A DNA stretch of 64,000 bases from Sphyrna mokarran. Its lineage: Eukaryota. Numbering within the stretch: the first letter of the stretch is position 1; the number at the start of each line of letters is the position of its first letter. The DNA is taken from the NCBI GenBank assembly GCA_024679065.1, contig JAGIQG010000009.1:91512001-91576000 (forward strand), in the 5' to 3' direction. The notes beneath the pieces were generated by a model, which was not told where the DNA came from, ran no database searches, and saw only the letters and a program-made list of their open reading frames with translations. Positions 2,246 to 60,389 of this stretch are shown here, one piece after another. The position numbers were made by a program, and so were the translations under genes.

Positions 2246-2297
2246 CGGGAGAGACCCAGGAAAAACACAGGGAGATGGAGAAAAGGATCAGCAACAT
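2246..2297 (-). CDS. Signal-peptide exon (proximal leader) of a class I gene whose body lies left of the window
   Basis: ATG...MLLILFSISLCFSWVSP then G|GTAAGT phase-1 donor, 52 nt. Confidence 0.8.
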
Positions 2298-2620
2298 TCT
2301 GGGAATCCACTGTCCTAATTCCAATCAGTGACTGGGAATTAAACACCCTGAGGGTGAAATAACTTTATAAACTTGGGGGGAAAACACCAAAAAACAAAAA
2401 CTTTATCCAAACTCCATTTTCCTGGCTAAATCAACAATTTCTATCTTGCAGAATCAGAAGATGACTGACTGCTTAATTTTCTGAGACGATCCAATGAAAG
2501 AGATAAACAGCCAGCCTGTCACTAGTTACCAGGAGGATCAAACTCAGACAGGATCAAGTTCAGGCTGATAAAAATTTAATCTTTCTCCAGCACCTTTCAC
2601 AAAGTGAAACCTCCCCAAGG
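2298..2620 (-). promoter_or_regulatory. MHC class I promoter: TATA, Y box, X1/X2 box, ISRE
   Basis: TTTATAAA 2364-2371; CCAAT 2491-2495; X-like CCTGGTAACTAGTGACAG (minus) 2516-2533, 20 bp from Y; IRF site AAAGTGAAACC 2601-2611. Confidence 0.7.
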
Positions 2621-2933
2621 ACAGCTTTATAAAACAAAGATTGATCCAGAGACACACACAGCTCAGTGCATAAAAACTGTCTCCAAATTCCAGGCTTGAA
2701 GGAATGTTTTAAAGAGAGGCTGCAGAGAGGTGTCGGGAGGGATTACAGAGTGAAGGACCGAGGTTACTGAAGGCACAGTCCCCAGTGTGGGGGAGATTCT
2801 AATCCCTGATACTGGAGATATCAGAATGAGAGGAACACAGAGATCTCACAGAGTTTGTGAAACTGGAGGAGATTACAGAAATAGGAAGGTATGAGGACAT
2901 GGAGAGATTTCAATTTTAAAATCCGGGGCAGAG

Positions 2934-3305
2934 GGAATGGTGCCTTCATTTCAAGGAGAATGGAATATAAAAGTAGGGAAAGATTGCTAAAACTATACAA
3001 GGCACCAGTTAGACCACATCTGGAAAACTGTCCCCTTTAGTCCCCTTATCTAAGAGAAAATATACTGGCATTGGAAGCAGTGCAGAGAAGATTCATTAGG
3101 TTGAGTCCAGGTGTGGAGGGATTTTCTTATGAGGAGATGTTGAGGAGATTGGGCCTGTACTCATTGGAGATGAGAAGAATGAGAGTGACCTTATTGAAAT
3201 GTATAAGATTCCCAGACGGTTTGACAGTGTAGATGCTGAGAGGATGTTTCCCCCTGTGGGAGAGTCTAGGACCAGAGAGTAGAATCTCAGAGTAAGGTGT
3301 CACCC
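2934..3305 (+). mobile_element. CR1 3' fragment
   Basis: Decayed LYKxLVRPHLE...LEAVQRRF...GLYSLE motifs; paralogs ~35633-36240 and ~59880-60250. Confidence 0.7.
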
Positions 3306-3389
3306 ATTTCAAACTCTCACCAAAAGATTCAAATTCACTCCAGAGAGAGAGAGAGAGAGTGAGAATGGAAGAGTGAATTCTGTACTTAC

Positions 3390-3441
3390 CGGGAGAGACC
3401 CAGGAAAAACACAGGGAGATGGAGAAAAGGATCAGCAACAT
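3390..3441 (-). CDS. Second (distal) signal-peptide exon, unit 1
   Basis: Same MLLILFSISLCFSWVSP with intact GTAAGT donor. Confidence 0.6.
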
Positions 3442-7390: not shown

Positions 7391-7742
7391 GTCCTTCCAC
7401 ACCAACACACTCACTTTGAGGTTCCCTACACTTCTCATTACTGAGAAGCTGGTGAGCCTTCACCTCCAGCTCACTGGGAAATGTGCTGAAGTTTGATTCT
7501 CTAAAGTTAGGACATGGCTTCCTCTCCTCTGTCTCTCACACTGACATCTTCAGTTAACAAGTCAATCAATGCTAATGGAAAACAATGAATGATGCTGACA
7601 TTTAGTCTGAACTCAGCCAGTTCACATTGGATTGAACATCAACAACTGTCCATTCCAATCGTCACAAGCTGCTGAGTGAATGAATTAAACCTTTCCTGCG
7701 AAATCAGTGAAGACAAATTCAGACAAATCAAACACAAAGTTA

Positions 7743-7748
7743 TTTATT
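7743..7748 (-). terminator. Polyadenylation signal AATAAA of gene A
   Basis: TTTATT on plus strand ~570 nt past the stop; conserved at 44654-44659 in gene B. Confidence 0.6.
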
Positions 7749-8313
7749 GATTACAAACCACAGTTATCGATGTTTCATTATGATCCTGATTATAGATTTT
7801 CCTCCATGAATGTGTGATATCATTAATCAATCGTAGAACACATCAGAGATGATATTACATAAAGAACAAAATGGGCCAGTGTGTAATAATTTAAATTCTG
7901 ACATTCTGTCATGTCTCAGAGTTACAATTTGGGTTGCCAATATTAATATCTCAGCAATATTCACACTGAGAGGTTTGACATGTTTTTCAGCCACTCCCTG
8001 TAACTATGATGGGACGTCTTCCCCCATTGAGTATCTCCAGTAACTGTCCCAAGTTGTGTCGTGTCCCTCACCAGTATTCCTGGACCTTGCATTGTGACAA
8101 TCTGAAACCCTCAGTCATGGAGAACTCTTTGCCCTGGAAGAGCTGTTAGTTTCAGGCGGATTTTCACTGAGTTGATGGTCCTCCAGTCAGAGACTGTGTT
8201 TATCTCAGTGTGTGTTTCTGGGAACAGCTGGTACAGCGTACAGTCCTGTATAAAGGAGCTGCTGCAATGAACACTCTGCGACTGTGTGGGAATTCATCAG
8301 ATCAAATTTCATT

Positions 8314-8331
8314 TTACTTCATCTCATATAA
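8314..8331 (-). CDS. Gene A terminal coding exon (LYEMK*)
   Basis: Polypyrimidine acceptor ttttcccacttcactttataag, phase 0; paralog reads VYEMK*. Confidence 0.6.
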   Translation of the reverse strand, partial: LYEMK

Positions 8332-11300
8332 CTTATAAAGTGAAGTGGGAAAACTGCCCAGCACCAGAAAAATGTTTCCAACATCCCGATTGTCATTTGC
8401 ATTATCAGATATATCACAAAATCTTTCATATGGATTCCAAAAAGTCTTCATCAAAATCCGCAAACATTTAAAGACATTTAAAAATCTGAGCAATCAGTAA
8501 GTGAGAAAAGTGCACAAACTGTGAGTGTATTTCATTCCCAATAATCTGTCCCTCAGTCACTCACTGGAGCTGTTGTGTACGTCTTACTTGGTGAATCTGC
8601 AGAAGTGAAATAAATGTCAGTTAGAATGGGGAATAATCCATTCTCAGAGAGTGAGAACACAACAAGTGTGAGGGAATGGAGATTGTGTGAGAAATACTCA
8701 TCCTCACACTCCCCTCCATCCTTACACTTTATGGAGATCCTGTAGATCTCTTCCATTCCATCCATATTCAGTAGGTGAGGATGTGAGTGTGTGCGGTGGC
8801 TTTAATGATCAATATTATACCTGGTCTGGGCTGATCACACAAAGGAAAATCAGACAGGGAACAAGAGGTGTTTATATGTGTGTATCTGTGTGTATGGGAA
8901 TTAAATCAGTTCATTCAACACAGTGTCCTGTACTCCCAGTACTGGAGATTCCCCACACTCACTCTGTCCCCTCTGATTCTTACCTCTCCGCTGTCTTTTC
9001 CAGATGATTATTCCGAATATAACAACCAGTGCTGAGATCACTGATCCGATTATAATTCCAAGATGGGACCATTCTCCACTGTTTCCCGAGATTTCTGAAA
9101 CACATTTGAATAACATGAGGATTGTCTCTGTTCCCGGATCCATTCCCAGTTCTGTGTTCATTGGGGACAATTTGAATTAAAGCCGTACCAGTCCAAATGG
9201 GAGTGGTTGAAGCTTTGCTTTTACACTGGCCCCATGGTGGATAAAGGAGTGTCTCCGGACCTGCTCTGGATGAACTTCCAGAAGCCATTGATTATTGTCA
9301 AGAATCTCTTGTGTGGAACGTTATCAGAGTGTTTGGAATTGAAGGGAATCTTTGCCATGGGGTGAAAATTGGTTGGCAGTGGGGGGAGACAGGGAATGGC
9401 GAGAATGGGAATGTGCTCCCATACAAACAGATGCACATATCCAGTACAGTTCCTTACCCAACTGATAGAGCTTGGGCTCTGCCAGGCTGCTGTGTTCAAT
9501 TTGACAGGAGTATTGATCCTCATCCTCAGCATTTATTTCAATCTCTTTCTGGATCTGATGGCTCCCATCATGGTTCGGTCGAATCCCCGAGGATAGTGTC
9601 TCAGACATTACCTCTCCGTCCCTTAACCAGTTCACCTCGATGTCTACAGGATAAAAGCCAGTAACCAGGCAGGAGAGAGTGAGGGGCTTGTACTGACTAT
9701 TGGGCTCACTTCTGGAGATGAAGACTTCAGGCTGAACTGTAATGGGAAAGGGTGAAAACACAAACAATAAACCCACACTGAATGGAATGGGGGAACGGTT
9801 TGATAAATCAGTGAAGTTAGAGCAGAACATGGGCTCAAAACTGAAATCAATACCTTTCCGTTCAAAATATACTTTTCCAGCTTCCAAATATTTCTTTAAA
9901 TGTTCAACAAATTCTTCCTGCAGTTGTTGTTTCCAGTAATTATTCCAGGATTGATCTGAATCCCATTTCTCTTTAGTCTTCACTGCAAAGTGATTGGATG
10001 CGACCCATCTCATTCTGTCTGGCTCTAAACTAATATAGTCCTTTCCATCAAATCCAAACTGCATCGATCTCTTAATGGAGCCGTCTTCAGTGACCTCGAC
10101 AGACCAAATCCATTGGAAAATATGGATTCCTGTCAGAGAGCAAATGATGATCAATATTCAGTGAACTGGAAGATTGGAAATATTGCTTTGTTAATCAATA
10201 AATTGGAGAAATGATCTTTGTGATAGAATTGTCAGCAAAACTGAAATCCCTGGAATAAAATAAGCAGCATCAGAATGTAAACAAACTTGCCGAATGGATC
10301 AGAAACAGAGTGGCCAGGATTCTCCCAAAATAATTCAACTGTCAAATTCGTTTGAAACCCGGAGTAAATCACGTTTGTTTTTACAGCGGGAGTTTCAAAA
10401 TGAATCTCCCATAATCTGTACATTGCAGAGAGCACGAGCAGGTTTCACACTGAAAAGCTGTCGGTGGGGCCTATTCCCGCTGGAGAGACTGACAGCAAAG
10501 TGCTGAGTGGGCCACTGCACATGTGCCAATCAGTCAGATTGGTGCATGCTCTGTAGCCCCTGTCTGCCGGCCTCCCAATTGCCGGCCGGCTCGATCGCTG
10601 GCCAGTTCTGCAATTCCCACAACGTCAGCCCTCCATCGCCCCCTCCCCACCCCACAGCCCGATCTCTGGTCTCCTGAACATTTACGTACCATCTCCAATC
10701 CCAACCCCCCACTTCCAGCCTGCCTTAATCTCCAGTACCCTGTGATCGCACATACGCTTGACAATTACCCCCCGCACCACAGTGCCAACCACCCCACACT
10801 CCGTAGTGCCAGCTCGCCCTCCCCGTGTAAGGCAGCCACACTACCCCCACCTCCAGCGCGTTGACCCCACACCCACCCCGATGGCCAGCCCTGATCGTTG
10901 GCCTTCCTCCCTCCCCCATGATCCCCCATGATGGCACAGTGGATAGTGAAGAAAGTTATCTCCAATTGCAATGGGATTTGATCAATTGGGCCAGAGGGCT
11001 GACGAATGACAGATGGAGTTTAACTTCGGCAAATGCGAGGTGATGCATTTGACCTGAAGAGATCAAATCCACTGAAGAATGTGACTTCCTTCAGAAACTA
11101 AATAGGGATCAATAATCAACAGATACTCTTTTCAGTGGAGAAAGGGAATTTAGTCTGAGATAGAAATGAATGGAATCTTCCTCTGCCTTTAGAAACAAGA
11201 AGCTCAGCGGTGAGTTATTAAATTAGATGGAGTCAGTGCTGGGAGATGGACTGAGTTCAGTGTCCCAGGGGTCAGTGCTGGGGGACTGAGTTCAGTATCC

Positions 11301-14300
11301 CAGGGGTCAGTGCTGGGGGGACTGAGTTCAGTGGCCCAGGGGTCAGTGCTGGGGGACTGAGCTCAGTGTTCCAGGGGTCAGTGCTGGGGGACTGAGTTCA
11401 GTGTCCTAGGGGTCAGTGCTGGGGGACTGAGTTCAGTGGCCCAGGGGTTAGTGCTGCGACACTGAGTTCAGTGTCCAGGAGTCAGTGCTGGAAGACTGAG
11501 AAGTGACCAAGCGGACAGTGCTGGGGGACTCACCTCAGTGTTGCAGGGGTCGCTGGTGGGGGACTGAGCTCAGTGTCCCAAGGGGTCAGTGCTGGAGGAA
11601 TGAGTTCAGTGTCCCAGTGGTCAGTGCTGGGGGACTGAGCTCAGTTTCCCAAGGGGTCAGTGCTGGGGGACTGAGTTCAGTGTCCCAGGAGTCAGTGCTG
11701 GGGGACTGAGCTCAGTGTTCCAGGGGTCAGTGCTGGGGGACTGAGTTCAGTGGCCCAGGGGTTAGTGCTGCGGCACTGAGATCAGTGTCCAGGAGTCAGT
11801 GCTGGAAGACTGAGATGTGACCAAGCGGACAGTGCTGGGGGACTCACCTCAGTGTTGCAGGGGTCGCTGGTGGGGGACTGAGCTCAGTGTCCCAGGGGTC
11901 AGTGCTGGGGAATTGAGCTCAGTATCCCAGGGGTCAGTGCTGGGGGACTGAGTTCAGTCCCCCAGGGGTCAGTGATAGAGGACTGAGTTCAGTATCCCAA
12001 GGGTCAGTGCTGGGAGACTGAGTTCAGTGGCCCAGGGGTTAGTGCTGCAGCACTGAGTTCAGTGTCCAGGAGTCAGTGCTGGAAGACTGAGATGTGACCA
12101 AGCGGACAGTGCTGGGGGACCCACCTCAGTGTTGCAGGGGTCGCTGGTGGGGGACTGAGCTCAGTGTCCCAAGGGGTCAGTGCTGGGGGACTGAGCTCAG
12201 TGTCCTCAGAGGTCAGTGGTGGGGGACTGAACTCAGTGTCCCAAGGGGTCAGTGCAGGGGGACTGAGCTCAGTGTCCCAAGGTGTCAGTGCTGGGGGACT
12301 GAGTTCAGTGTCCCGAGGTGTCAGTGCTGGGGGACTGAGCTCAGTGTCCCAAGGGGTCAGTGCTGGGGACTGAGCTCAGTGTCCAAGGGGTCAGTGCTAG
12401 TTGAATGAGTTCAGTGTACCAGGGGTCAGTGCTGGGGGACTGAGTTCAGTATCCCAGGGGTCAGTGCTGGGGGACTGAGCTCAGTGTACCAGGGGTCAGT
12501 GGTAGGTGACTGAGTTGTCTCCCAGAGGTCAGTGCTGGGGGAGTGAGATCAGACTCCGAGGGGTCAGTGCTGGGGGACTCAGTTTAGTGGCTCAAGGGTC
12601 AGTGCTGGGAGACTGAGTTGTGTCCCAGTGGTCAGTGCTGGGGGACTCAGCTCAGTGTTGCAGGGGTCAGTGCTGGGGGACTGAGCCCAGTGTTCCAGGG
12701 GTCAGTGCTGGGGGACTGAGCCCAGTGTCCCAGGGGTCAGTGCTGGGGGACTGAGTTCAGTATCCGGGGTCAGTGCTGGGGACTGAGTTCAGGTCCCAGG
12801 GGTCAGTGCTGGGGGACTGAGTTCAGTATCCCAGGGGTCAGTGCTGGGGGCTGAGTTCAGTATCCCAAGGGGCAGTGCTGGGAGACTGAGTTGTGTACCA
12901 GCGGTCATTGCTGGGGGACTGAGCTCAATGTCCAGGGGTCAATGCTGGGGGACTGAGTTCAGTGTCACAGGGGTCCGTGCTGTGGGATGAGATCAGTGTC
13001 CCAGGGGTCAGTGGTGTGTGACTGAAATCAGTTTCCCAGGGGTCAGTGCTGGGACACTGAGCTCAGTGTTCCAGGGGTCAGTGCTGGGGACTGAGTTCAG
13101 TGTCCCAGGGGTCAGGGCTGGGGGACTGAGTTCAGTGTCCGGGTCAGTGCTGGGGGACTGAGTTCAGTGTCCCAGGGGTCAGTGCTGGGCGACTGTGTTC
13201 AGTGTCCCAGGGGTCAGTGCTGGGGGACTGAGCGTTCCAGGGGTCAGTGCTGGGGGACTGAGTTCAGTGTCCTAGGGGTCAGTGCTGGGGGACTGAGTTC
13301 AGTGGCCCAGGGGTTAGTGCTGCGGCACTGAGTTCAGTGTCCAGGAGTCAGTGCTGGAAGACTGAGATGTGACCAAGCGGACAGTGCTGGGGGACTCACC
13401 TCAGTGTTGCAGGGGTCGCTGGTGGGGGACTGAGCTCAGTGTCCCAAGGGGTCAGTGCTGGAGGAATGAGTTCAGTGTCCCAGTGGTCAGTGCTGGGGGA
13501 CTGAGCTCAGTTTCCCAAGGGGTCAGTGCTGGGGGACTGAGTTCAGTGTCCCAGGGGTCAGTGCTGGGGGACTGAGCTCAGTGTTCCAGGGGTCAGTGCT
13601 GGGGGACTGAGTTCAGTGTCCTAGGGGTCAGTGCTGGGGGACTGAGTTCAGTGGCCCAGGGGTTAGTGCTGCAGCACTGAGTTCAGTGTCCAGGAGTCAG
13701 TGCTGGAAGACTGAGATGTGACCAAGCGGACAGTGCTGGGGGACCCACCTCAGTGTTGCAGGGGTCGCTGCTGGGGGACTGAGCTCAGTGTCCCAGGGGT
13801 CAGTGCTGGGGAATTGAGCTCAGTATCCCAGGGGTCAGTGCTGGGGGACTGAGCTCAGTGTCCCAGGGGTCAGTGCTGGGGGGACTGAGTTCAGTGGCCC
13901 AGGGGTCAGTGCTGGGGGACTGAGCTCAGTGTTCCAGGGGTCAGTGCTGGGGGACTGAGTTCAGTGTCCTAGGGGTCAGTGCTGGGGGACTGAGTTCAGT
14001 GGCCCAGGGGTTAGTGCTGCAGCACTGAGTTCAGTGTCCAGGAGTCAGTGCTGGAAGACTGAGATGTGACCAAGCGGACAGTGCTGGGGGACTCACCTCA
14101 GTGTTGCAGGGGTCGCTGGTGGGGGACTGAGCTCAGTGTCCCAAGGGGTCAGAGCTGGAGGAATGAGTTCAGTGTCCAAAGGGGTCAGTGCTGGAGGAAT
14201 GAGTTCAGTGTCCAAAGGGGTCAGTGCTGGGGGACTGATCTCAGTGTCCCAAGTGGTCAGTGGTGGGGGACTGAGCTCAGTGTCCAAAGGGGCAGTGCTG

Positions 14301-17300
14301 GGGGACTGAGCTCGGTGTCCCGAGGGGTCAGTGGTGGGGGACTGAACTCAGTGTCCCAAGGGGTCAGTGCAGGGGGACTGAGCTCAGTGTCCCAAGGGGT
14401 CAGTGCTGGGGACTGAGCTCAGTGTCCAAGGGGTCAGTGCTAGTTGAATGAGTTCAGTGTACCAGGGGTCAGTGCTGGGGGACTGAGTTCAGTATCCCAG
14501 GGGTCAGTGCTGGGGGACTGAGCTCAGTGTACCAGGGGTCAGTGGTAGGTGACTGAGTTGTCTCCCAGAGGTCAGTGCTGGGGGAGTGAGATCAGACTCC
14601 GAGGGGTCAGTGCTGGGGGACTCAGTTTAGTGGCTCAAGGGTCAGTGCTGGGAGACTGAGTTGTGTCCCAGTGGTCAGTGCTGGTGGACTCAGCTCAGTG
14701 TTGCAGGGGTCAGTGCTGGGGGACTGAGCCCAGTGTTCCAGGGGTCAGTGCTGGGGGACTGAGCCCAGTGTTCCAGGGGTCAGTGCTGGGGGACTGAGCC
14801 CAGTGTTCCAGGGTCAGTGCTGGGGGACTGAACTCAGTGTCCCAGGGTCAGTGCTGGAGGACTGAGTTCAGTATCCCAGGGGTCAGTGCTGGGGGACTGA
14901 GTTCAGTTACCCAGGGGTCAGTGCTGAGGGACTGAGTTCAGTGTCCCAAGGGGTCAGTGCTGGGGGACTGAGTTCAGTATCCCAGGGGTCAGTGCTGGGG
15001 GACTGAGTTCAGTCCCCCAGGGGTCAGTGATAGAGGACTGAGTTCAGTATCCCAAGGGTCAGTGCTGGGAGACTGAGTTGTGTCCCAGCGGTCATTGCTG
15101 GGGGACTGAGCTCAATGTCCAGGGGTCAATGCTGGGGGACTGAGTTCAGTGTCACAGGGGTCCGTGCTGTGGGATGAGATCAGTGTCCCAGGGGTCAGTG
15201 CTGGGACACTGAGCTCAGTGTTCCAGGGGTCAGTGCTGGGGGACTGAGTTCAGTATCCCAGGGGTCAGTGCTGGGGGACTGAGTTCAGTCCCCCAGGGGT
15301 CAGTGATAGAGGACTGAGTTCAGTATCCCAAGGGTCAGTGCTGGGAGACTGAGTTGTGTCCCAGCGGTCATTGCTGGGGGACTGAGCTCAATGTCCAGGG
15401 GTCAATGCTGCGGGACTGAGTTCAGTGTCACAGGGGTCCGTGCTGTGGGATGAGATCAGTGTCCCAGGGGTCAGTGCTGGGACACTGAGCTCAGTGTTCC
15501 AGGGGTCAGTGCTGAGGGACTGAGTTCAGTGTCCCAGGGGTCAGGGCTGGGGGACTGAGTTCAGTGTCCCAGGGGTCAGTGCTGGGGGACTGAGTTCAGT
15601 GTCCCAGGGGTCAGTGCTGGGCGACTGTGTTCAGTGTCCCAGGGGTCAGTGCTTGGGGACTGAGCTCAGTGTCCCACGGGTCACTGCGGGACTGAGTTCA
15701 GTGTCCCGGGGCAGTGCTGGGGACTGAGTTCAGTGCCCAGAGGTCAGTGCTTGTGGACTGAGTTCAGTATCCCAAGGGTCAGTGCAGGGACTGAGTTCAG
15801 TGTCCCAGGGGTCAGTGCTGGGCGACTGTGTTCAGTGTCCCAGGGGTCAGTGCTGGGGGACTGAGCTCAGTGTCCCAGGGGTCACTGTTGGTGGACTGAG
15901 TTCAGTGTCCCACCGGTCAGTGCTAGGGTCTGAATGCAGTGCCCCAGGGGTCAGTGATGGGTGACTGAGCTCAGTGTCCCAAGGGGGTCATTGCTGGAGA
16001 CTCAGTTCAGTGTCCCAGGGGTCAGTTCTGGGGGACTGAGTTCAGTGTCCCAGGGGTCAGTGCTGGGGGACTGAGTTCAGTGTCCCAGGGGTCAGTGCTC
16101 GGGGACTGAGTTCAGTGTCCAGGGGTCAGTTCTGGGGGACTGAGCTCAGTGTAAGGTTATGAATCAATACGCTGATTCTCTCTGTCTGTTCTTACCGGAT
16201 GTCTGGTTTGTGATCTTCAGCACTGTATTCAGATTCTCCTTTGCCGTGTCTGAGTGTGAGTTCACCATTCCTGTGATATAATCCCAGAATTCAGGGGTGA
16301 TATTTTCAGCCATGAACCTCTGCCTGGGAGTGCAGCGACGGATATTAGTGTCATGATATCCTATTTGGACACCATTCAGCATTCCAATACTTGTGACCTC
16401 AGGAAAATCTTCTCTCCCAGACACAGCAGTGTACAACACTGTGAGTGTGTCAGTGTCTGTAAAAGAAACAGTTAAAAGGACGGGTCAATAAACGCCATCT
16501 GATCATCAGAACAATCTCACGGGACTTCACCATCCCCTCTCCTCCCGTCCCCAATCACTACCCGTACAGAGCCCCCAAACACAATCCCCTATTCCCGAAC
16601 ATCACCCCTCACCAATCACCACAACTCCCAATCACCATCCTCTCCCTGAGCACCATCCTCTCCCCGAGCACCATCCTCTCCGTGAGCACCACCCTCTCTC
16701 CCGATTATCACCCCTTACCCCGATCACTACCCCCTCCCCCAATCACCAACCCCCATGTCCGATCACCACCCTCTCTCCTGATTTCTACCCCCTCACCCCG
16801 ATCATCACCCTCTCTCTTAATTAACACTCACTCCCCAATCATCATCCCCCTCCCTATCACGACCCCTACCTCCCAATAACCATCCTCGTCTCCTCCTCCC
16901 GATCACCACACCCTCTCTTCCCGATCACCCACCCCTCCCCTGGTCACCACCCCCTCCTCCCAATCACCATCAGAGCCACCCCTCCCCCACCCCTTCCGAC
17001 GAACACCACCCCGAATGGGCCAGTAATACAGTCTGGGAGGCTGTGTAATCGGCCATCAGTGTCCGCGTCCTGCTACAGAGGTCCGGGGACCAGTGTCAGA
17101 AAAGGATGAACAACCTTCTTTGGGCAGGAAGAGTCAGTGTCCATCCCATCCCGATATCGTTCCTGTCTGTCGCGCTTGCAATGTCGAGCCACCCGCCTGA
17201 CACTCTGCAGCCTCCCAGCACCCGGCCTCCAAGCATATTCCTCCAACCCCGCAGGCACCCCCACTTACAACCACAGACTGCCGAGGCACAGCCCCGATAA

Positions 17301-20300
17301 ACCCACCCTATCACCCCACCTCCGACACCCTGTGTCCTTATAGCCATCAGGTTTTCAATCCCTCCTTTCTCTCCATGGGATGAAGTTGACCATAAGCACC
17401 AGGATCATGCCCTTGGGTAGGGTCTCCGAGCTGCACCTCCTCACTACCTTTGAGGATGGCTATGGAGTCAACAGGGAAAGGTGAGGAGAATGGAATATAA
17501 AAGTAGGGAAAGCTTGCTAAAATTATACAAGACACCAGTTAGACCACATGTGGAAAACTGTGATCAGATTTATTCTCCTTATCTCAGGGAAAATATACTG
17601 GCATTGGAAGCAGTCCGGAGAAGGTTCACCAGGTTGATACTGAGTATGGAGGGATTTTCTTATGAGGAGAGGTTGAGTAGATTGCGCCTGTACTCATTGG
17701 AGTTGAGCAGAATGAGAGGTGACCTTATTGAGACATATCGGATTCTCAGGGGTTTGACAGGGTAGATGTTGAGAGGTTGTTTCTCCCTGTGGAAGAATTC
17801 CAAGACTGGGGATGGGGTCCCCGAGCTGCATCTCCTCAATGCCTCTGAGGAGCGCGATGGGGCTAGCAGGGAAGGGTGAGGAGGGAATGGTCACTGATGG
17901 TCAGGTCAGGGTTCACCATGATAGTGAGCATTTCCAAAACCCGAGTTCAAATGGCTCAATCCAGGTAATGGCATACTGCCCAGACACTTGTCCCTTTCTA
18001 CTTTCCTTGTATTCTTCTGGAATACGAGGAAAGTGGAAAGAAAGTTAAGCAAGGAGTAAGGACGGCTAAAAAGGATCATATAAAAACACTGGCCAGCAGG
18101 ATTAAGGAAAATCCCAAGGCTTTTTATACATAAGTAAAGAGCAAGAGGGTAGCCATGGAAAGGATTGGCCCACTCAAGGACAAGGGAGGGAATGTATGTG
18201 TGGAGTCAGAGGTAATGGACAAAATATTAAATAAATAGTTTGCATCAGTATTCACCAAAGAGAATGACTTGGTGGATGATGAGTCTGGGAAAAGATGGGT
18301 AGATAGTTTGAGTGATGTTGCGATCAAAAAGGAGATGTATTGCGGTTCTTGAGCGACATTAAAGTAGAGAAGTCCCCAGGGGCTAATGGGATTTACCCCA
18401 GAATACTGAGAGAGACAAGGGAGGAAATTGCTGAGGCCTTGAGAGAAATCTTTGTATCTTCACTGGCTCCAGGGGAGGTCCCAAAGGATTGGAGAATAAC
18501 CAATGTTGTGCCTTTGTTTAAGAAGGGTAGCAAGAAAATCCAGGTTATTGCAGGCTGGATCATCAGTGGTAGGGAAAATTATTGGAGCGGATTCTTCGAG
18601 ACAGGATTTATTCCCACTTGGAAATAAGTAGACATATTAGTGAGAGGCAACATGGTTTTGAGAAGGGGAGATCATGTCTCACAAACATGATCGAGTTTTT
18701 CAAGAAAGTGATGAAGATGATTGATGAGGGTAGGGCAGTGGATGTTGTCTACATGGACTTCAGTAAGGCCCTTGACAGGATCCCTCATGATAGACTGATG
18801 TAAAAGGTAAAGTCACATGGGATCAGAGATGAGCTGACAAAGTGGATATGAAACTAACTCGGTCAAAGAAGACAGAGGGTAGCAGTGGAAGGATGCATTT
18901 CTGAATAGAAGGCTGTGACTAGTGCTGTTCCTCAGGGATCAGTGCTGAGATCGTCGCTGTTTGTAACATATATAAATGATTTGCAGGAAAATGTCACTGA
19001 TTCGATTAGAAAGTTTGCAGATGACACAAATGTTGGTGGTTTTGATGATAGCAATGATGAACATCAAAGGATACAGCAGGATATAGATCAGTTGGAGAAT
19101 TGCACGGAAAAAAGGCAGATGGGGTTTAATCCAGACAAATGTGAGGTAATACATTTTGGAAGGTCTAATACGGATAGAAAATGTACAGTAAATGGCAGAA
19201 TCCTTAAGAGTATTGATAGGCAAAGGGATCTGAATGTACAGGTACACAGGTCACTCACTGAAAGTGACAATAGAGTTAGAGAAGGTGGTCAGGAAAGCAA
19301 ATGGTATGATTGCCTTCATTGGACGGGCGATTGAGTTTAAAAATTTGCAAGTCATGTTGACGCTTTATAGAATCTTAGTTAGGCCGCACTTGGAATATAG
19401 TGTTCAATTCTGGTCACCATATTACCAGCAGGATGTGGAAGCTTTGGAGAGAGTACAGAAAAAATATACCAGGATGTTGCCAGGTATGGAGGGCATTAGC
19501 TATGAGGAGAGATTGGAGAAACTTGGTTTGTTCTCACTGGAACAACAGAGATTGAGGGGTGACTTGATAGAAGTCTACAAGATAATGAGAGGCATGGACA
19601 GAGTGGATAGTCAGAAGCTTTTTCCCAGGGTGGAAGAGTCATTTACTAGGAGGCACAGGTTTAAGATGCAAGAGTTTAAAGGAAATGTATGAGGCAGATT
19701 TTTTTACACAGAGAGCAGTGGGTGCCTGGAACGTGTTGCTGGGGGAGGTAGTGGAAGCAGAGACAGTGCTGAGTTTTAAGGGGCATCTTGACAAGTATAC
19801 GAATAGGATGGGAATAGAGGGATATGGTCCTGGAAAGATCGGGGGTTTTAGACCAGTGAGGCAGCATGGTCAGTGCAGGCTTGGAGGGTCAAAGGGCCTG
19901 TTCCTGTGGTGTAATTTTCTTTGCTCTTTGTTCTCTTGACTGAACCTTGTGTTATCTGTTACAGGAAATGATCCAGATGCATTAAACCCTCCCACTCCGC
20001 TCCTCCTAAGATGCACAATGGCAGCTGGAAGAAAACCTCGGAGGAAGGCCCCGAGGAAATCGTCAAGCTCAGCATTTCTCAATTGACACCAGCTTCCACC
20101 ACACAATCCACCAGCGCAGATACGATCAGCTCAGTGGGACAAGTTAGTGCTGAGGCTTCTGGGTCACTTACTGGTGGGGTCACACAGCCTTTAATCTACA
20201 TCGGGTAAAGGTGGGAATGTCGACGGTTCGGGCACACGGAGTTCTTCCAGAGCTAAGGATGCATCTGGCCCCAAGCCAAGTGCTAGGCCTCTGGGATCGG

Positions 20301-32300: not shown

Positions 32301-34989
32301 TCACCGAACTCCACGATGAATATCTCCCATCAACCACCACCCTCTGTCTTCTATCTGCTAGCCAATTCCTAACCCAATTAGCTAAATCACCCTCAATCCC
32401 ATACATCTGCATTTTCTGCAGAAGTCTTCCATGGGCCACCTTATTGAACGCCTTACTAAAGTCCATATATACCACATCAACTGCCTTACCCCCATCCACC
32501 TCTTTGGTCACTTTTTCAAAAAACTCAATAAAGTTAGTAAGGCACGACCTACCCTTCACAAAACCATGCTGACTATCCCCAATCAATTCATTTCTCTCTA
32601 AATAACTATAAATCTATAACTATAACTAAATAACTATAAAAAACTATAAATCCTATCCCTAATAATTCTCTCCAATACTTTGCCCACAACAGAAGTAAGA
32701 CTCACCGGCCTATAATTCCCCGGAAAGTCTCTCTTCCCCTTCTTGAACAATGGGACCACATTCGCTATCCTCCAGTCTTCTGGCACTATACCCGTAACCA
32801 ACGACAACCTGAAGATCAGAGCCAGAGGCTCTGCAATTGCCTCTCTCGCCTCCCAGAGAATCCTAGGGTAAATCCCGTCCGGCCCAGGGGACTTATCTAA
32901 CTTCAAACCCTCAAGAATATCTAGCACATCCTCCTTATCTACTTCAATACTTTCCAGTTTGCAACCCTGTATCCCAGTGTTCTCCACAACTACATTTACA
33001 TCTCCCTGCGTGAATACCGAAGAGAAATATTTGTTCAGTGCCTCTCCAATCTCTTCAGGCTCCACGCACAACTTCCCACTGCTGTCCATAACTGGCCCTA
33101 ACCAATCTTCTATTCTTAACATATCTAAAGAAAGCTTTAGGATTCTCTTGATCCTATCAGCCAAAGTCTTCTCGTGTCCCCTTTAGCCCTCCTCAACTCA
33201 CTCTTTAGCTCACTCCTGGCTAATCTATAGCTATCCATTGCACTAACTGAGCCTTCAAGCCTCATCCTTACATAAGCCTCCTTTTTCCTTTTAACCAGCG
33301 AATTAACTTTTTTAGTACACCATGGTTCCCTTACTCGACCATTTCCTCCTTGCCTGACAGGGACTTACTTATCAAGGACTCTCACTAGCTGCTCCTTGAA
33401 TAAGCTCCACATTTCAGATGTTCCCAGTCCCTATAGTTTCCTAGTCCAACCTATGCACCCTAATTCCCTCCTTATGGGCTCATAATTACCACTCCCCCAG
33501 CTGTAACTACTGCCCCCAGCTTCATGCCTATCCCTATCCATCACTAAGGTGAACGTAACCGAATTGTGGTCACTATCACCAAAATGTTCACCAACTTCCA
33601 AGTCTAACACCTGGTCTGGCTCATTGCCCAGCACCAAGTCCAATGTAGCCTCACCTCTAGTTGGCCTATCTACACACTGAGTCAAAAAACCTTCCTGCAC
33701 ACTTTGTACAAAAACTGACCCCTCTAACGAGCTAGAGCTATAGCTATTCCAATCAATACTAGTAAAGTTAAAGTCCCCCATAACAATTACCCTATTACTT
33801 TCACTCCTGTCCAGGATCGACTTTGCAATCCTTTCCTCTACCTCTCTAGAACTTTTAGGAGGACTATAAAAGACTCCCAACAGGGTGACCTCTCCTCTCC
33901 TGTTTCTAATCTCAGCCCATACTACCTCAACAGACAAGTCCTCATCAAACTTCCTTTCTGTCACTGTGATACAGTCTTTGACTAATAATGCCACTCCTCC
34001 CCCCCTTCTACCTCCTTCTCTACTCCGACTGAAGCATTTGAACCCCGGAACCTGCAACAACCATTCCTGTCCCTGCTCTATCCATGTCTCTGAAATGGCC
34101 ACAACATCGAAGTTCCAGGTACTGGTCCAAGCTGCAAGTTCCTCCACCTTATTGCAAATACTTCTTGCATTAAAATATACACATTTCAAACCATGCCCTA
34201 CTCCACCGGTACGCTGCTGTGCTTTACAGTTCACATCTATGACCCCACTGTTCTCGTCCCTCTTAACATCCAAACTACTCAGGATCCCACCCCACCTCTG
34301 AATCAGTTTAAAGCCCCCTGCATAGCCTTTGCAAATTTTCCCCCCAAGACATTGGTTCCCCTCTGGTTCAGGTGTAGACCATCTCTCTTTTACAGGTCCC
34401 ACCTATCCCAGAATGAGTCCCAATTGTTCAGGAACCTGAACCCCTCCCTCCTGCACCATCCCCGTAGCCACGAGTTCAAACATTCCCTCTCTCTGTTCTT
34501 CTCTAAACTATCCCGTGGCACAGGCAAGAGTCCAGAGATAACCACTTTGTCTGTTTTGGCCCTAATCTTCTACCCCAACTCCATAAATTTCTGTTTAATA
34601 TCCCCTTCCCTTGTCCTACCTACATCATGTGTCCCTACATGAACTATGACTTGGGGCTGACTCCCCTCTCCCTTAAGAATCTTAAAAACCCGCTCTGAGA
34701 CATCCTGGACCCCGGCCCCTGGGAGGCAACACACCAGCCCTGTGTCCCGTTTATGACTAATTACTCTCCTATCTGTCCCCCTAACTATGGAGTCCCCAAT
34801 TACCAGGCCCAATCTCTTATTCCCCCTACCCACCTGAGCATTCCCATTTCATCAGCCATTTCAAACTCTCACCAAAAGATTCAAATTCACCCCAGAGAGA
34901 GAGAGAGTGAGAACGGGAGAGTGAATTCTGTACTTACCGGGAGAGACCCAGGAAAAACACAGGGAGATGGAGAAAAGGATCAGCAACAT
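8314..34989 (-). CDS. Non-classical MHC class I heavy chain, gene A (7 coding exons, 342 aa)
   Basis: Exons 34938-34989, 16196-16456, 9854-10129, 9458-9736, 8984-9094, 8565-8596 and 8314-8331 all have AG/GT boundaries and sum to 1029 nt in one open frame. Class I motifs: EFWD, NQTS, FDGKDYI, LSCLVTGFYP, YSCQIEHSSL. Leader choice (34938 vs 39848) and the last two exons are inferred. Confidence 0.88.
8565..8596 (-). CDS. Gene A cytoplasmic exon (DSPSKTYTTAP)
   Basis: ttcacttctgcag acceptor, GTGAGT donor, YxxA motif; identical in gene B. Confidence 0.7.
8984..9094 (-). CDS. Gene A connecting peptide/transmembrane exon
   Basis: EISGNSGEWSHLGIIIGSVISALVVIFGIIIWKRQRR; hydrophobic helix plus basic stop-transfer; AG/GTAAG. 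Confidence 0.9.
9458..9736 (-). CDS. Gene A alpha3 (Ig C1) exon
   Basis: VQPEVF...LSCLVTGFYPVDIEVNW...PNHDGSHQ...YSCQIEHSSL; 279 nt, phase 1-1. Confidence 0.95.
9854..10129 (-). CDS. Gene A alpha2 exon
   Basis: GIHIFQW...FGFDGKDYISL...TKEKWD...LKKYLEAG; 276 nt, phase 1-1. Confidence 0.95.
10310..11050. mobile_element. GC-rich element fragment plus CR1 RT fragment (10934-11050, +) in gene A intron 2
   Basis: VDSEESYLQLQWDL...QMEFNFGKCEVMH; absent from gene B; identity of the GC-rich part is uncertain. Confidence 0.5.
11051..11088 (-). pseudogene. Truncated alpha2 exon remnant (GSHILQWI*SLQV) in gene A intron 2
   Basis: Aligns with the alpha2 5' end and its upstream intron in gene B (46941-47120); in-frame TGA; cut by a CR1 fragment. 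Confidence 0.75.
11230..16151. repeat. 35-bp palindromic minisatellite, ~140 units
   Basis: Consensus GGGGTCAGTGCTGGGGGACTGAGYTCAGTGTCCCA. Confidence 0.97.
16196..16456 (-). CDS. Gene A alpha1 exon
   Basis: DTDTLTVLYTAVSG...PEFWD...ITNQTSG; 261 nt, ttttacag acceptor, GTAAG donor, N86 sequon. Confidence 0.93.
16530..17010. repeat. Degenerate C-rich repeat (ATCACCACCCCCTCCCCG-like)
   Basis: Low-complexity tandem units; paralog ~47808-48090. Confidence 0.75.
18020..19940 (+). mobile_element. CR1 LINE ORF2 (RT) fragment, degenerate
   Basis: KSPGANGIYPR, QHGF...SCLTN, VPQGSVL, KFADDT, LVRPHLEY. Confidence 0.9.
21745..22145 (-). mobile_element. CR1 3' end with (ATAGAAC)n tail
   Basis: RVDSDSLFPRM...FFTQRVIREWNALP. 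Confidence 0.85.
22146..22226. repeat. (TGAATC)n microsatellite
   Basis: Direct observation. Confidence 0.9.
23175..23490 (+). mobile_element. tRNA-derived SINE
   Basis: B-box-like GGGTTCGAATCCC; paralog ~52490-52805. Confidence 0.6.
24078..30300 (-). mobile_element. Near full-length degenerate CR1 LINE, split by a nested CR1
   Basis: RT (KFADD, QHGFMKGRSC), endonuclease (MGDFN) and ORF1 fragments; interrupted at ~25158-27466. Confidence 0.85.
25159..27466 (+). mobile_element. Nested CR1 LINE with long 3' UTR
   Basis: KSPGPDGIYPR, NYRPVSLASVVGK, KFADDTK; (TGTTCTT)-type tail. Confidence 0.88.
31305..34840 (-). mobile_element. Relatively young CR1 LINE (ORF1 GDSL esterase, APE endonuclease, RT)
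   Basis: LVIGDSIVRG; YFNARSI...ISETW...MGDFN...SDHN; VPQGSVLGP...FADDTK; absent from the other two units. Confidence 0.92.
34938..34989 (-). CDS. Gene A proximal signal-peptide exon
   Basis: MLLILFSISLCFSWVSP + G|GTAAGT; phase matches alpha1. Confidence 0.8.
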
Positions 34990-40639: not shown

Positions 40640-41556
40640 CCCCTCCCCTCACCACACTCCCCCTCACCACACTCCCCTCCACACACTCCCCCACACCACA
40701 CTCCCCTCACCACACTCCCCCTCACCACACTCCCCTCACCACACTCCCCCACACCACACTCCCCCCTCACCACACTCCCCCTCACAACCACACTCCCCTC
40801 ACACACTCCCCCACACCACACTCCCCCTCACCACACTCCCTCTCACCACTCCCCGCACCACACTCCCCCACACCAACACTCCCCCTCACCACACACCCCC
40901 TCACCAACTCCCCCTCACCACACTCCCCCGCACCACACTCCCCCTCACCACACTCCCTCTCACCACACTCCCCCACCACACTCCCCCGCACCACACTCCC
41001 CCTCACCACCACCCCCTCACCACACTCCCCCTCACCACACTCCCCCTCACACCACACTCCCCCGCACCACACTCCCCTCACACACACCCCCTCACCACAC
41101 ACCCCCTCACCACACACCCCCCTCACCACACTCCCCCGCACCACACTCCCCCTCAACCACACACCCCCTCACCACACACCCTCACCACACACCCCTCACC
41201 ACACTCCCCGCACCACACTCCCCCACACCACACTCCCCCACACCACACTCCCCCTCACCACACCCGCCTCACCACACTCCCCCTCACCACACTCCCCTAC
41301 ACCACACTCCCCTCACCACACTCCCCCTCACCACACTCCCCCTCACCACACGCCCCCCCCCTCACCACACTCCCCCTCACCACACTCCCCCGCACCACAC
41401 TCCCCCACACCAACCCCCCAACCACACTCCCCTCACCACACTCCCCTCACCACACTCCCCGCACCACACTCCCCTACACCACACTCCCCACACCACACTC
41501 CCCTCACCACACTCCCCCTCACCACACTCCGCCTCACCACACCCCCCCTCACCCTC
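40640..41556. repeat. 15-bp C-rich minisatellite, expanded copy
   Basis: Same unit as 4180-4642. Confidence 0.95.
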
Positions 41557-44500: not shown

Positions 44501-44653
44501 CAGTTCACATTGGATTGAACCTCAGCAACTGTCCATTCCAATCGTCACAAGCTGCTGAGTGAATGAATTAAACTTTTCCTGCGAAAATCTGTGTTCTATG
44601 TTCTACGTAAAATCAATGAAGAAGAATTCAGACAAGTCAAACACTGACAATTA

Positions 44654-44659
44654 TTTATT
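44654..44659 (-). terminator. Polyadenylation signal AATAAA of gene B
   Basis: Position homologous to 7743-7748. Confidence 0.6.
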
Positions 44660-45224
44660 GATTACAATCCACAGTTATGGTGTTTCATTATGATCCTGAT
44701 TATAGATTTTCCTCCCTGAACGTGTTATAACATTAAAATAAACAATCGTAGAACACATCAAATATGATGTTACATAAAGAGCAACATGGGCCAGTGTGTA
44801 ATAATTTAAATTATGACATTCTGTAGTGTCTCACTACACTGAGAGTTACAATTTAGATTGGCAATATTAATATCTCAGCAATATTCACACTGAGAGTTTT
44901 GACATGTTTTTCAGCCACTCCCTGTAACGTTGATGGGAGGCCTTCCCCCATTGAGTGTTTTCAGTAACTGTCCCAAGCTGTGTCGTGTCCCTCACCAGTA
45001 TTCCTGGACCTTGCATTGTGGCAATCTGAAACCCTCAGTCATGCCCTGGAAGAGTTGTGACTTTCAGGCTGAATTTCACTGAGTTGATGGTCCTCCAGCA
45101 GGAAATGGTGTTTATTTCAGTGTGTGTTCCTGGGAACAGCCTGTACAGCGTACAGTCCTGTATAAAGGAGCTGTCGGGTGAACATTCTGTGACTGTGTGG
45201 GAATTCATCAGATCAAATTTCATT

Positions 45225-45242
45225 TTACTTCATCTCATACAC
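45225..45242 (-). CDS. Gene B terminal coding exon (VYEMK*)
   Basis: Acceptor ttttccacttcactttataag; homologous to 8314-8331. Confidence 0.6.
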   Translation of the reverse strand: MYEMK

Positions 45243-48200
45243 CTTATAAAGTGAAGTGGAAAACTGCCCAGCACCAGAAAAATGTTTCCAACATCCAAAC
45301 TGTCTTCTCCATTATCAGATATATCACATAATCTTTTATACAGTTCCAAAAAGTCTTGATCAATATCCGCAAATATTTAAAGATTGTTCAGAGTTTTAAC
45401 GATGAGAAAGTGAGAAAAGTATACAAACTGTGAGTGTATTTCATTCCCAACAATCTGTCCCTCAGTCACTCACTGGAGCTGTTGTGTACGTCTTACTTGG
45501 TGAATCTGCAGAAGTGAAATAAATGTCAGTTAGAATGGGGAATAATCCATTCTCAGACAGTGAGAACACAACAAGTGTGAGGGAATGGAGATTGTGTGAG
45601 AAATACTCATTCTCACACTCCCCTCCATCCTTACACTTTATGGAGATCCTGTAGATCTCTTCCATTCCATCCATATTCAGTAGGTGAGGATGTGAGTGTG
45701 TGCGGTGGCTTTAATGATCAATATTATACCTGGTCTGGGCTGATCACACAAAGGAAAATCAGAAGGGAGCAAGATGTATTCATACACTCACTCTGTCCCC
45801 TCAGTTCTACATTCCCCTCTCTCTGATTCTTACCTCTCCGCTGTCTTATCCAGATGATTATTCCGAATATAACAGCCAGCGCTGAGATCACTGATCCGAT
45901 TATAATTCCAAGATGGGAATGTCCCCCACTGTTTCCTGGGATTTCTGAAACACATTTGAACAATATGAGGATTGTTTCTGTTCCCGGATCCATTCCCAAT
46001 TCTATGTTCATTGGGGACAATTTGAACTGAAACCACCCCAGTCCAAATGGGATTGGTTGAAGCTTTGCTTTTACACTGGCCCCATGGTGGATAAGGGAGT
46101 GTCTATGGATCTGCCCTGGATGGACTTCCAGAAGGTCATTGATAAAGTTCCACACAAGAGATTCTTGACAATAATCAGAGTGTTTAGAATTGAAGGAAAT
46201 CCTTGCCATGGGGTGAAAATTGGTTGGCAGGAGAGAGACAGGGAATGGAGGGAATGGGAATGTGCTCCCATACAAACACATGCAAATATCCAGTACAGTT
46301 CCTTACCCCACTGATGGAGCTTGGGCTCTTCCAGGCTGCTGTGTTCTATTTGACAGGAGTATTGATCCTCATCCCCAGCATTTATTTCAATCTCTTTCTG
46401 GATCTGATGGGTTCCATCGTGGTTTGGTCGAATCCCCGAGGATAGTGTCTCAGACATTACCTCTCCGTTCCTTAACCAGTTCACCTCGATGTCTACAGGA
46501 TAAAAGCCAGTAACCAGGCAGGAGAGAGTGAGGGGCTTGTACTGACTATTGGGCTCACTTCTGGAGATGAAGACTTCAGGCTGAACTGTAATGGGAAAGG
46601 GTGAAAACACAAACAATAAACTCACACTGAATGGAATGGGGGAACGGTTTGATAAATCAGTGAAGTTAGAGCAGAACATGGACTTAAAACTGAATTCAAT
46701 ACCTTTCCATGCAAAATAGTCCTTTCCAGCTTCCAAATATTTGTGTAAATGTTGAACAAATTGTCCCAGAATATATTTTTCCCAGTAATTATTCCAGGAT
46801 TGATCTGAATCCCATTTCTCTTTAGTCTTCACTGCAAAGTGATTGGATGCGACCCATCTCATTCTGTCTGGCTCTAAACTAATATAGTCCTTTCCATCGA
46901 ATCCAAACCGCATCGATCTCTTAATGGAGCCGTCTTCAGTGACCTCGATAGAACGAATCCACTGAAGAAGATGAATTCCTGTCAGAAACCAAACAGAGAT
47001 CAATAATCAATAGACAATCTTTTCAGTGGTGAAATGAGATTTAGTCTGAGATAGAAATGGACGGAATCTTCCTGTGCCATCAGTAGCAGGAAGCTGAGCA
47101 GTGAGGTTATTAAATTAGATGGAGTCAGTGCTGAGAGATGGACTGAGCTCAGTGTCCCTGGGGTCAGTGCTGGGGGACTGAGTTCAGTATCCCTGGGGTC
47201 AGTGGTGGGGGTCTGAGTTCAGTATGCCAGGGGTCAGTGGTGGGGGTCTGAGTTCAGTGTCCCAGGGGTCAGTGCTGGGGGACTGAGTTCAGTGTCCTAG
47301 GGGTCAGTGCTGGGGGACTGAGTTCAGTATGCCAGGGGTCAGTGGTGGGGGTCTGAGTTCAGTATGCCAGGGGTCAGTGCTGGGGGACTGAGTTCAGTGT
47401 CCCAGGGGTCAGTGCTGGGGGACTGAGCTCAGTATATGTTGTACATCAATATGCTGATTCTCTCTGCCTCATCTTACCGGATGTCTGGTTTGTGATCTTC
47501 AGCACTGTATTCAGATTCTTGATTACCATGTTGAACTGCAAGTTCTCTATTTCTGTGATATAATCCCAGAATTCAGACTCAAAATTTTCAGCCATGAACC
47601 TCTGCCTGGGAATGCAGCGACGGATATGACTGTCATGATATCCTATTTGGACACCATTGACCATTCCAATGCTTGTGAACTCAGGAAAATCTTCTATCCC
47701 AGAGACAACAGTGTATAACACCATGAATGAGTTAGTGTCTGTAAAACAAATGGTTAAAGGGATTGGTCAATAAACACCAGTCTGATCACCAGAACAATCT
47801 CACTGGACTTCACCATCCCCTCCCTGGTCACCACCCTCTCCGCTGATCACCATCCCCTCCTCAACCACTAATCCCATCCCTCCGATCACCACCCCATCCC
47901 TTCGATCACCACCCCCTCCCTCGATCACCACACTCTCCCCAATCACCACCCCTCCCCTCGATCACCAACCCCTCCCCTCGATCACTCCCCCTCCCCTCAA
48001 TCACCACCCCCTCCTCAATCTCCATCCCCTCTCCCTGATTGCCAATCCGCCCCAGATCATCATCTCGAGAGAGCTATTTCCCAAACACCACCCCGAACGG
48101 AGCAACGGTTCAAGTCTTGGGCCAGTAATACAGTCTGGGAGGCTGAGTAATCGGCCATCAGTATCATGTATCAGTATCAGTATCCTGCTACAGAGGACCA

Positions 48201-60337: not shown

Positions 60338-60389
60338 CGGGAGACACCCAGGAAAAACACAGGGAGATGGAGAAAAGGATCAGCAACAT
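60338..60389 (-). pseudogene. Distal leader exon of unit 3 with destroyed splice donor
   Basis: Leader ORF intact but donor GTAAGT>CTAAGT (position 60337). Confidence 0.7.

What the first reader, a model, noticed from the sequence alone, without database searches (positions are those of the whole stretch)
9854..10129. Apparently intact MHC class I genes without the alpha2 disulfide
Seen: neither alpha2 exon encodes any Cys. By manual alignment to HLA numbering, C101 is V (A) or I (B) and C164 is F in both, so a hydrophobic pair replaces the bond. Established: C101-C164 is near-invariant in class I and class I-like folds. Frames, splice sites, promoters, the N86 sequon and b2m contacts (Q96, D119, G120, D122) are intact. 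Inference: a divergent multigene lineage with a remodelled groove. Shark UEA/UCA are candidate assignments; if it groups with none of the known lineages, it is new.
Basis: partly seen in the sequence, partly recalled or inferred. Interest (0 to 1): 0.75.

Follow-up and report, generated by a model that had tools for sequence, protein, structure and literature searches.

The report
Shark UEA-lineage MHC genes lacking disulfide
Two intact shark immune genes lack a disulfide bond that almost all MHC class I proteins carry, but so do all their shark relatives found here, most likely the already described UEA family, so these are ordinary new members of a known, still poorly understood family.

Summary
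Neither alpha2 exon has a Cys; position 101 is V (gene A) or I (gene B) and 164 is F in both. Frames and the splice sites of the coding exons are intact. It is not a new lineage. The genes nest (SH-aLRT 100) in a multi-copy family found here only in sharks, apart from UAA, UBA, UDA and UGA. C101 is absent in 88 of 88 relatives covering the site, and none has both Cys. A nurse-shark sequence in a published 2023 query alignment is 70% identical in alpha2, 84% in alpha3, and already shows V101/L164; dogfish UCA (37%) shows V101/V164. By copy number and shark-only range the family is most likely UEA; that name is inferred, because the UEA paper was not held. Contigs from related organisms are spliced at the predicted junctions. 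Likely working: a b2m-paired, non-classical display molecule with the N-terminal peptide anchors lost, an aromatic alpha2 wall, and a V/I-F contact in place of the bond. One correction: gene B's distal leader has a broken donor. Side lead: each gene has two promoter-leader modules, and shark UDA shares the same leader.

The parts
9854..10129 (-). Gene A alpha2 exon, no Cys; V101 codon at 10100-10098, F164 codon at 9911-9909
16196..16456 (-). Gene A alpha1 exon; V7, F59, I84, N86 sequon, lone Cys near HLA position 45
9458..9736 (-). Gene A alpha3 exon (C1-set) with both Cys
8984..9094 (-). Gene A connecting peptide and transmembrane exon
   Evidence: joint 8596/8984
8553..8596 (-). Gene A cytoplasmic tail with one Tyr and the stop codon; 3' UTR runs on to an AATAAA near 7745
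   Evidence: contig cover
39848..39899 (-). Gene A distal-type leader exon, intact donor (assignment to gene A inferred from position)
34938..34989 (-). Gene A proximal-type leader exon, intact donor, different upstream region
46703..46978 (-). Gene B alpha2 exon, no Cys; I101 and F164
47478..47738 (-). Gene B alpha1 exon
46307..46585 (-). Gene B alpha3 exon with both Cys
45834..45944 (-). Gene B transmembrane exon
45462..45505 (-). Gene B cytoplasmic tail and stop codon
59202..59253 (-). Gene B proximal-type leader exon, intact donor
60338..60389 (-). Gene B distal-type leader exon with donor GT changed to CT
2246..3441 (-). Two further leader exons (ATG 3441 and 2297), likely of a next gene whose body lies beyond the window start
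11248..16152 (.). 35-bp minisatellite, 141.5 copies, in the alpha1-alpha2 intron of gene A; gene B has 8.5 copies at 47140-47435

Best explanation
Genes A and B are intact members of a multi-copy, shark-wide non-classical MHC class I family, most likely the described UEA lineage, which has lost C101 throughout and is predicted to hold the alpha2 helix on the sheet by side-chain packing (V/I101 against F164 here) while likely displaying a non-canonical, probably hydrophobic ligand. Shown: the gene anatomy, the family clade, and loss of the bond across the family. Inferred: the heavy chain pairs with b2m (Q96, D119, G120, D122 kept) and reaches the surface; the A-pocket end, where the bond normally sits, no longer anchors a peptide N-terminus (V7, F59, Q/Y159, H167) and differs between paralogues; the F-pocket side (T143, K146, W147) and an aromatic wall (W97, M114, W152, W156) are held nearly constant. 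The most likely job is to show a small hydrophobic or C-terminally anchored ligand to innate-like T cells or NK-type receptors, with paralogues differing mainly in alpha1. Odds: about 0.9 for the UEA name, about 0.5 for the ligand step.
For:: 106 relatives; every named one is from a shark (10 genera and the same set, plus Pristiophorus), none from a ray or chimaera; 2 are unnamed; of 97 that align in alpha2, 0 of 88 covering position 101 have Cys (V 82), 9 of 95 have a lone C164, 0 have both. (quick IQ-TREE, 93 rows): A and B sit inside a 71-row clade, SH-aLRT 100, stem 0.73, apart from 22 outgroup rows (UDA 10, UAA 6, UBA 1, UGA 1, bony vertebrates 4). (supplement of PMC10751288): a nurse-shark query has V101/L164 and, counted by hand, 64 of 92 alpha2 and 78 of 93 alpha3 residues identical to gene A; dogfish UCA has V101/V164 and 34 of 92. 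UEA is described as multicopy, beside UDA and b2m, and as one of two expanded shark families, the other being UBA. N86, Q96, G120, D122, M114, W133, W147 and W156 are invariant in 69 of 69 family rows; alpha1 identity to A has median 0.51 against 0.73 (alpha2) and 0.86 (alpha3); A versus B dN/dS is about 1.0 in alpha1, 0.68 in alpha2, 0.38 in alpha3. AlphaFold2 of a relative with V101/F164 gives the usual strand-and-helix order with block pLDDT 78-94 over residues 21-190; contigs join 9736/9854 in 3 of 4 runs and 8596/8984 in 2 of 4, both at GT-AG ends; the bond lies in the A pocket.
Against: The published nurse-shark match is labelled 'UCA' in that file, and the supplement has no 'UEA' label, so the name UEA rests on copy number, range and my recall of the UEA abstract. 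The UEA and UDA papers were not held. UCA and UFA sequences were not among the fetched proteins, so neither is in the tree. The tree is the quick one; the careful search did not finish. Position 164 is polar or small in some relatives (S 7, D 5, G 5 of 95), so hydrophobic replacement is not general. T143, K146, W147, Y123 and Y171 are kept in A and B, which leaves peptide binding possible. dN/dS rests on one pair and few sites (alpha3: 4 synonymous and 6 non-synonymous changes). The spliced contigs are from other organisms or paralogues and only guessed to be RNA; they do not show that gene A or B is transcribed. AlphaFold confidence does not show stability without the bond.
Confidence: 0.8

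Rival explanations
1. The family is the non-dogfish arm of UCA, or an unnamed sister lineage, rather than UEA.
For: The published nurse-shark match is labelled UCA. Dogfish UCA shares V101, the loss of C164 and Trp at 97, 152 and 156 with the family (read by eye).
Against: Gene A is only 37% identical to dogfish UCA in alpha2, no closer than to UAA (up to 41%), against 70% to the nurse-shark sequence. The main text of the same paper never uses UCA and names UEA as the multicopy family. Either way the lineage is already on record.
Confidence: 0.1
2. The genes still present peptides, but anchored only at the C-terminal end, with the N-terminal part overhanging a remodelled A pocket (HLA-F-like behaviour, recalled).
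For: T143, K146, W147, Y123 and Y171 are kept in A and B, and T143 51, K146 62, W147 69 of 69 family rows.
Against: R84 is lost in A and B and varies widely in the family; W97, W152 and W156 would crowd the middle of the groove (crowding inferred, not measured).
Confidence: 0.25
3. The groove is empty or closed, and the proteins work as stress or self ligands for receptors, or as binding partners, like MIC or HFE (recalled).
For: An invariant aromatic wall on the alpha2 side and loss of the N-terminal anchors.
Against: Strong divergence of alpha1 and of the 157-167 helix segment between paralogues fits ligand or receptor diversity equally; nothing here separates this from ligand display.
Confidence: 0.2
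4. The genes are decaying duplicates and the Cys loss is part of that decay.
For: Gene B has one broken leader donor and an insertion upstream of it.
Against: Both 340-aa frames are open; the loss is shared by all covered relatives across shark orders; related contigs are spliced at the same junctions; alpha3 is under apparent constraint.
Confidence: 0.04

Closest known systems
Shark UEA lineage (Almeida et al. 2021, J Immunol 207:824; paper not held; described in passages of PMC10751288 and PMC12562908)
   Same: Multicopy, tandem, non-classical; relatives found here only in sharks; loss of most N-terminal peptide anchors; several subgroups in the tree.
   Different: Nothing shown. No sequence labelled UEA was available to compare directly; MHC linkage is not visible inside this window.
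Nurse-shark query labelled Gcirratum_UCA_NODE_26056 (supplement of PMC10751288)
   Same: V101, no C164; 70% alpha2 and 84% alpha3 identity to gene A by hand count.
   Different: Its alpha1 matches a separate 5-row subgroup (SH-aLRT 99); A and B group with Mustelus and Scyliorhinus paralogues that share the lone alpha1 Cys.
Spiny dogfish UCA (AF515705)
   Same: Lacks both alpha2 Cys (V101, V164); Trp at 97, 152, 156.
   Different: Only 37% alpha2 identity; lacks T143, K146 and W147, which A and B keep (read by eye).
Shark UDA
   Same: Same leader peptide in sharks, with species-specific variants shared.
   Different: Keeps C101 and C164 in 10 of 10 rows, Y7, R84, Y159, W167 and Y171; at most 37% alpha2 identity; separate clade.
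Shark classical UAA, and UBA and UGA (PDB 9CH4 matches UGA)
   Same: Class I domain order, alpha3 disulfide, b2m contacts.
   Different: All rows keep both alpha2 Cys (UAA 6 of 6, UBA 1, UGA 1); separate branches.

Membership tests
MHC class I heavy chain | Leader, alpha1, alpha2, C1-set alpha3, TM and tail on separate phase-1 exons | tested here: met
MHC class I heavy chain | C101-C164 disulfide (near-universal, not strictly defining) | tested here: not met
   control 120 of 124
MHC class I heavy chain | b2m-contact residues Q96, D119, G120, D122 and N86 sequon | tested here: met
   binding itself not tested
Classical class I (UAA) | Eight peptide-anchor residues Y7, Y59, R84, T143, K146, W147, Y159, Y171 (list) | tested here: not met
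   A keeps 4 of 8, B keeps 5 of 8; outside the UAA branch
UEA | Multicopy family in sharks | tested here: met
   Two full genes and leaders of a third in 64 kb; many paralogues per species; definition
UEA | Present in sharks, not detected in rays or chimaeras (recalled from the abstract, not seen here) | tested here: met
   No ray or chimaera among 106 relatives, while one search shows the database holds ray and chimaera class I proteins; word-based search, so distant members could be missed
UEA | Clusters with sequences named UEA | tested here: inconclusive
   No UEA-labelled sequence found; the matching published sequence is labelled UCA
UEA | Maps to the MHC class Ib cluster beside UDA and b2m | tested here: inconclusive
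   No genome held and no marker gene seen in the window. Relatives share longest-contig lengths with UDA and UAA-type proteins in Mustelus and Chiloscyllium punctatum, which suggests the same chromosome
UEA | Hydrophobic groove and three sublineages (recalled) | tested here: inconclusive
   Aromatic residues at 97, 152, 155, 156 and several subgroups; no hydropathy figure was computed and the subgroups could not be matched to published names
UCA | Close to dogfish AF515705 | tested here: not met
   34 of 92 alpha2 residues identical, hand count; UCA not in the tree
UBA / UDA / UGA | Clusters with these lineages and keeps both alpha2 Cys | tested here: not met
   labels assigned by matching fetched proteins to the published alignment
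UFA | Clusters with UFA | tested here: not met
   Both published UFA rows keep both Cys and differ plainly in alpha2 (by eye); no UFA protein was in the tree

The most novel reading that the evidence does not exclude
The loss of C101-C164 has not been studied as a feature: a whole shark-wide family (with dogfish UCA, from one ancestral loss) folds a class I platform without the bond, frees and diversifies the A-pocket end, keeps an invariant aromatic alpha2 wall for a hydrophobic ligand, and would mature outside the usual redox and chaperone control of alpha2. In addition each gene is driven by two alternative promoter-leader modules whose leader is homogenised with that of UDA within each shark species. 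No structure of the family is in the PDB.
Probability: 0.25. Interest if true: 0.5.

Novelty: new member of a known kind. Interest (0 to 1): 0.24.

Why it matters
As a discovery it matters little: the family is annotated in many shark genomes and the missing cysteines can be read from a published alignment. As a test object it has some value. In human class I, mutating C101-C164 abolishes TAPBPR binding (passages of bioRxiv 10.1101/779777), so a natural family that does without the bond is a ready system for asking how the alpha2 helix is held and whether such molecules bypass the usual chaperones. Its ligand is unknown and no solved structure is closer than about 35% identity in the fold search.

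Tried and rejected
No genome is held for the window, so linkage could not be read. The UEA and UDA papers are not held; their text and supplements may state the cysteine loss and the shared leader outright. Searches that found no statement on the shark cysteine loss: (listings only, open-licence library); this is weak evidence of absence. One search found no useful listing on low-expression HLA alleles; no RNA holder listed on record; 4 of 22 runs were laid. Names in the protein collection are generic and gave no lineage label. The careful tree did not finish; the quick tree is reported. The whole-chain model matches solved class I only at TM about 0.5 and rmsd 8-11 A, probably because alpha3 is misplaced without b2m (inferred); model coordinates were not on hand, so the 101-164 distance and groove width were not measured. 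A pocket-by-pocket entropy and hydropathy table was not computed, so groove character is judged from the position table alone. No complex with b2m was predicted: no shark b2m sequence was fetched. A candidate 10-nt micro-exon near 8830 was rejected because contigs join 8984 directly to 8596. Earlier findings of this scan: none returned.

Full report
Observation. The interval 10129-9854 on the minus strand is an MHC class I alpha2 exon with AG and GT ends and no Cys codon; Pfam places it on MHC_I positions 91-176. A second copy lies at 46978-46703. Position 101 is V in A and I in B, and 164 is F in both. The numbering was anchored on the HMMER alignment of a close relative to chicken BF2 and on a published alignment with HLA-A2. 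As a control, 140 cluster representatives were aligned, 126 covered both sites, 2 of these belong to this family, and 120 of the other 124 have a Cys within two columns of both sites. The loss is real and unusual.

Anatomy. Each gene gives an open 340-aa frame: leader, alpha1, alpha2, alpha3 with both Cys, TM and a short tail. The window is a tandem array of units some 37-43 kb long: 4183-10160 matches 41088-47009 at 88.6%. There are six leader exons in three pairs, a distal type (ATG 60389, 39899, 3441) and a proximal type (59253, 34989, 2297) with different upstream sequence. The leader at 60389 has CT in place of GT at its donor, and a roughly 1-kb insertion with a weak GIY-YIG hit interrupts its upstream region. 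Gene B therefore likely relies on the proximal leader. Both genes carry a lone Cys in alpha1 near HLA position 45, as do 27 of 69 family rows.

Relatives. Searches with alpha2 and alpha3 returned 73 and then 33 further proteins. All named ones are from sharks (Mustelus, Scyliorhinus, Carcharodon, Cetorhinus, Chiloscyllium, Hemiscyllium, Rhincodon, Stegostoma, Heterodontus, Heptranchias, Pristiophorus), often many per species; two are unnamed. The best is 88% identical in alpha2. Nine of the 106 have no alpha2 match. Among the other 97, none of the 88 that cover position 101 has Cys, 9 of 95 have a lone C164, and none has both. A quick IQ-TREE run on alpha1-alpha3 of 93 rows (69 of the relatives chosen as near full length, 22 outgroups, A and B) puts A and B inside a 71-row clade with SH-aLRT 100, next to Mustelus paralogues and apart from UAA, UBA, UDA and UGA. 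Outgroup labels came from matching fetched proteins to the published alignment. The careful search did not finish, and UCA and UFA were not available as rows.

What is in print. In PMC10751288 I read passages, section 9 and supplement parts 4, 97 and 98. The text describes UEA as multicopy in a class Ib cluster with UDA, beside b2m. The supplement's alpha2 file has 26 rows; 23 show both Cys. The three without are a nurse-shark sequence labelled UCA, dogfish UCA, and a ray sequence labelled UHA that aligns poorly. By hand count the nurse-shark sequence shares 64 of 92 alpha2 and 78 of 93 alpha3 residues with gene A and has V101/L164; dogfish UCA shares 34 of 92 and has V101/V164. The word UEA does not occur in that supplement. 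Passages of PMC12562908 say sharks have two expanded class Ib families, UBA and UEA. Since this family is expanded and is not UBA, UEA is the name left. From recall of the UEA abstract (not seen here), UEA is shark-only, has a hydrophobic groove and three sublineages, and UCA is confined to dogfish; that would make the nurse-shark label a working name. The UEA and UDA papers were not held. Searches found no sentence on the shark cysteine loss, but the key papers are outside the library, so I cannot say it is unreported. I also saw passages of PMC4364491 (anchor list; teleost S and P lineages keep the alpha2 Cys), PMC8713811 (nothing on this point), bioRxiv 10.1101/779777 and PMC9359109.

Expression. 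Four of 22 listed runs, from four studies and four coded organisms, were laid on 7700-10300. Contigs skip exactly 9737-9853 in three runs and 8597-8983 in two, both GT-AG on the gene's strand, and loose ends behind 10130 in two runs match the end of the alpha1 exon (compared by eye). Most contigs are 90-99% alike, so they come from relatives or paralogues, and RNA is only guessed. They show that the family is spliced as modelled, not that A or B is transcribed.

How it likely works. Shown: the b2m contacts and N86 are kept; Y7, Y59, R84 and W167 are replaced in both genes and Y159 in A; T143, K146, W147 and Y171 are kept; M114, W133, W147 and W156 are invariant in 69 of 69 rows and W152 in 68. 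Alpha1 is the most variable domain, and the alpha2 differences between A and B fall mostly in the first strand and the 157-167 helix segment, around the lost bond. An AlphaFold2 model of a relative with V101/F164 keeps the usual platform elements at high confidence. The bond normally ties the alpha2 helix to the sheet at the A pocket. Inferred: side-chain packing stands in for it, the A-pocket end no longer anchors a peptide N-terminus, and the constant aromatic wall suits a hydrophobic or C-terminally anchored ligand shown to innate-like receptors. Against a strict hydrophobic pair, position 164 is S, D, G, T or C in 28 of 95 relatives. One-ended peptide binding and an empty groove remain open.

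Side lead. Shark UDA proteins, including a nurse-shark record and one from a 1195-nt contig, carry the same leader as this family, and species-specific variants are shared: Pristiophorus P0262 with P0043 and Heptranchias P0272 with P0016. Ray UDA leaders are related but diverged. This points to a homogenised promoter-leader module or a shared exon; gene-model borrowing is not excluded for the genome-derived records.

Verdict. A correct and sharp observation, but on a family already on record: new members of a known kind, most likely UEA. Interest 0.24.

Noticed in passing
window 60389, 59253, 39899, 34989, 3441, 2297 (ATG positions, minus strand): Each gene unit has two tandem promoter-leader modules with near-identical leader exons but different upstream sequence: a distal type with CRE-, CCAAT- and ISRE-like motifs (not all in every copy) and a proximal type with a TATA-like motif. 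Possible alternative first exons.
   Followed up: partly
P0264, P0143, P0140, P0262, P0263, P0272 against window leaders: Shark UDA carries the same leader peptide as this family, with species-specific variants shared between the two lineages; ray UDA leaders differ. Suggests concerted evolution or a shared exon.
   Followed up: partly
window 16196-16456 and 47478-47738: Lone Cys in alpha1 near HLA position 45 in both genes and 27 of 69 family rows. Unpaired alpha1 Cys drive dimers in HLA-G and HLA-B27; dimer formation here is untested.
   Followed up: partly
window 60559-61530: Insertion of about 1 kb in the upstream region of gene B's distal leader; it overlaps an open frame with a weak GIY-YIG hit (E 6e-5), perhaps a Penelope-like fragment (recalled).
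   Followed up: partly
window 9737-9853 and 46586-46702: The alpha2-alpha3 intron is 117 nt, in frame and free of stops in both genes, so retention would give an open frame; low contig depth covers it.
   Followed up: no
window about 9935-10050 against gene B: A run of about 115 nt in the middle of alpha2 is identical between A and B while the flanks differ; gene conversion or strong constraint.
   Followed up: no
window 11248-16152: A 35-bp minisatellite of 141.5 copies fills the alpha1-alpha2 intron of gene A; gene B has 8.5 copies.
   Followed up: no
window 17800-20700, 25200-26900, 48500-51400 and others: Several broken reverse-transcriptase-like (LINE-type, recalled) fragments in the long leader-alpha1 introns, shared between units.
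   Followed up: no
P0076, P0091, P0148: Database records named 'beta-2-microglobulin-like' are fragments of this class I family.
   Followed up: no
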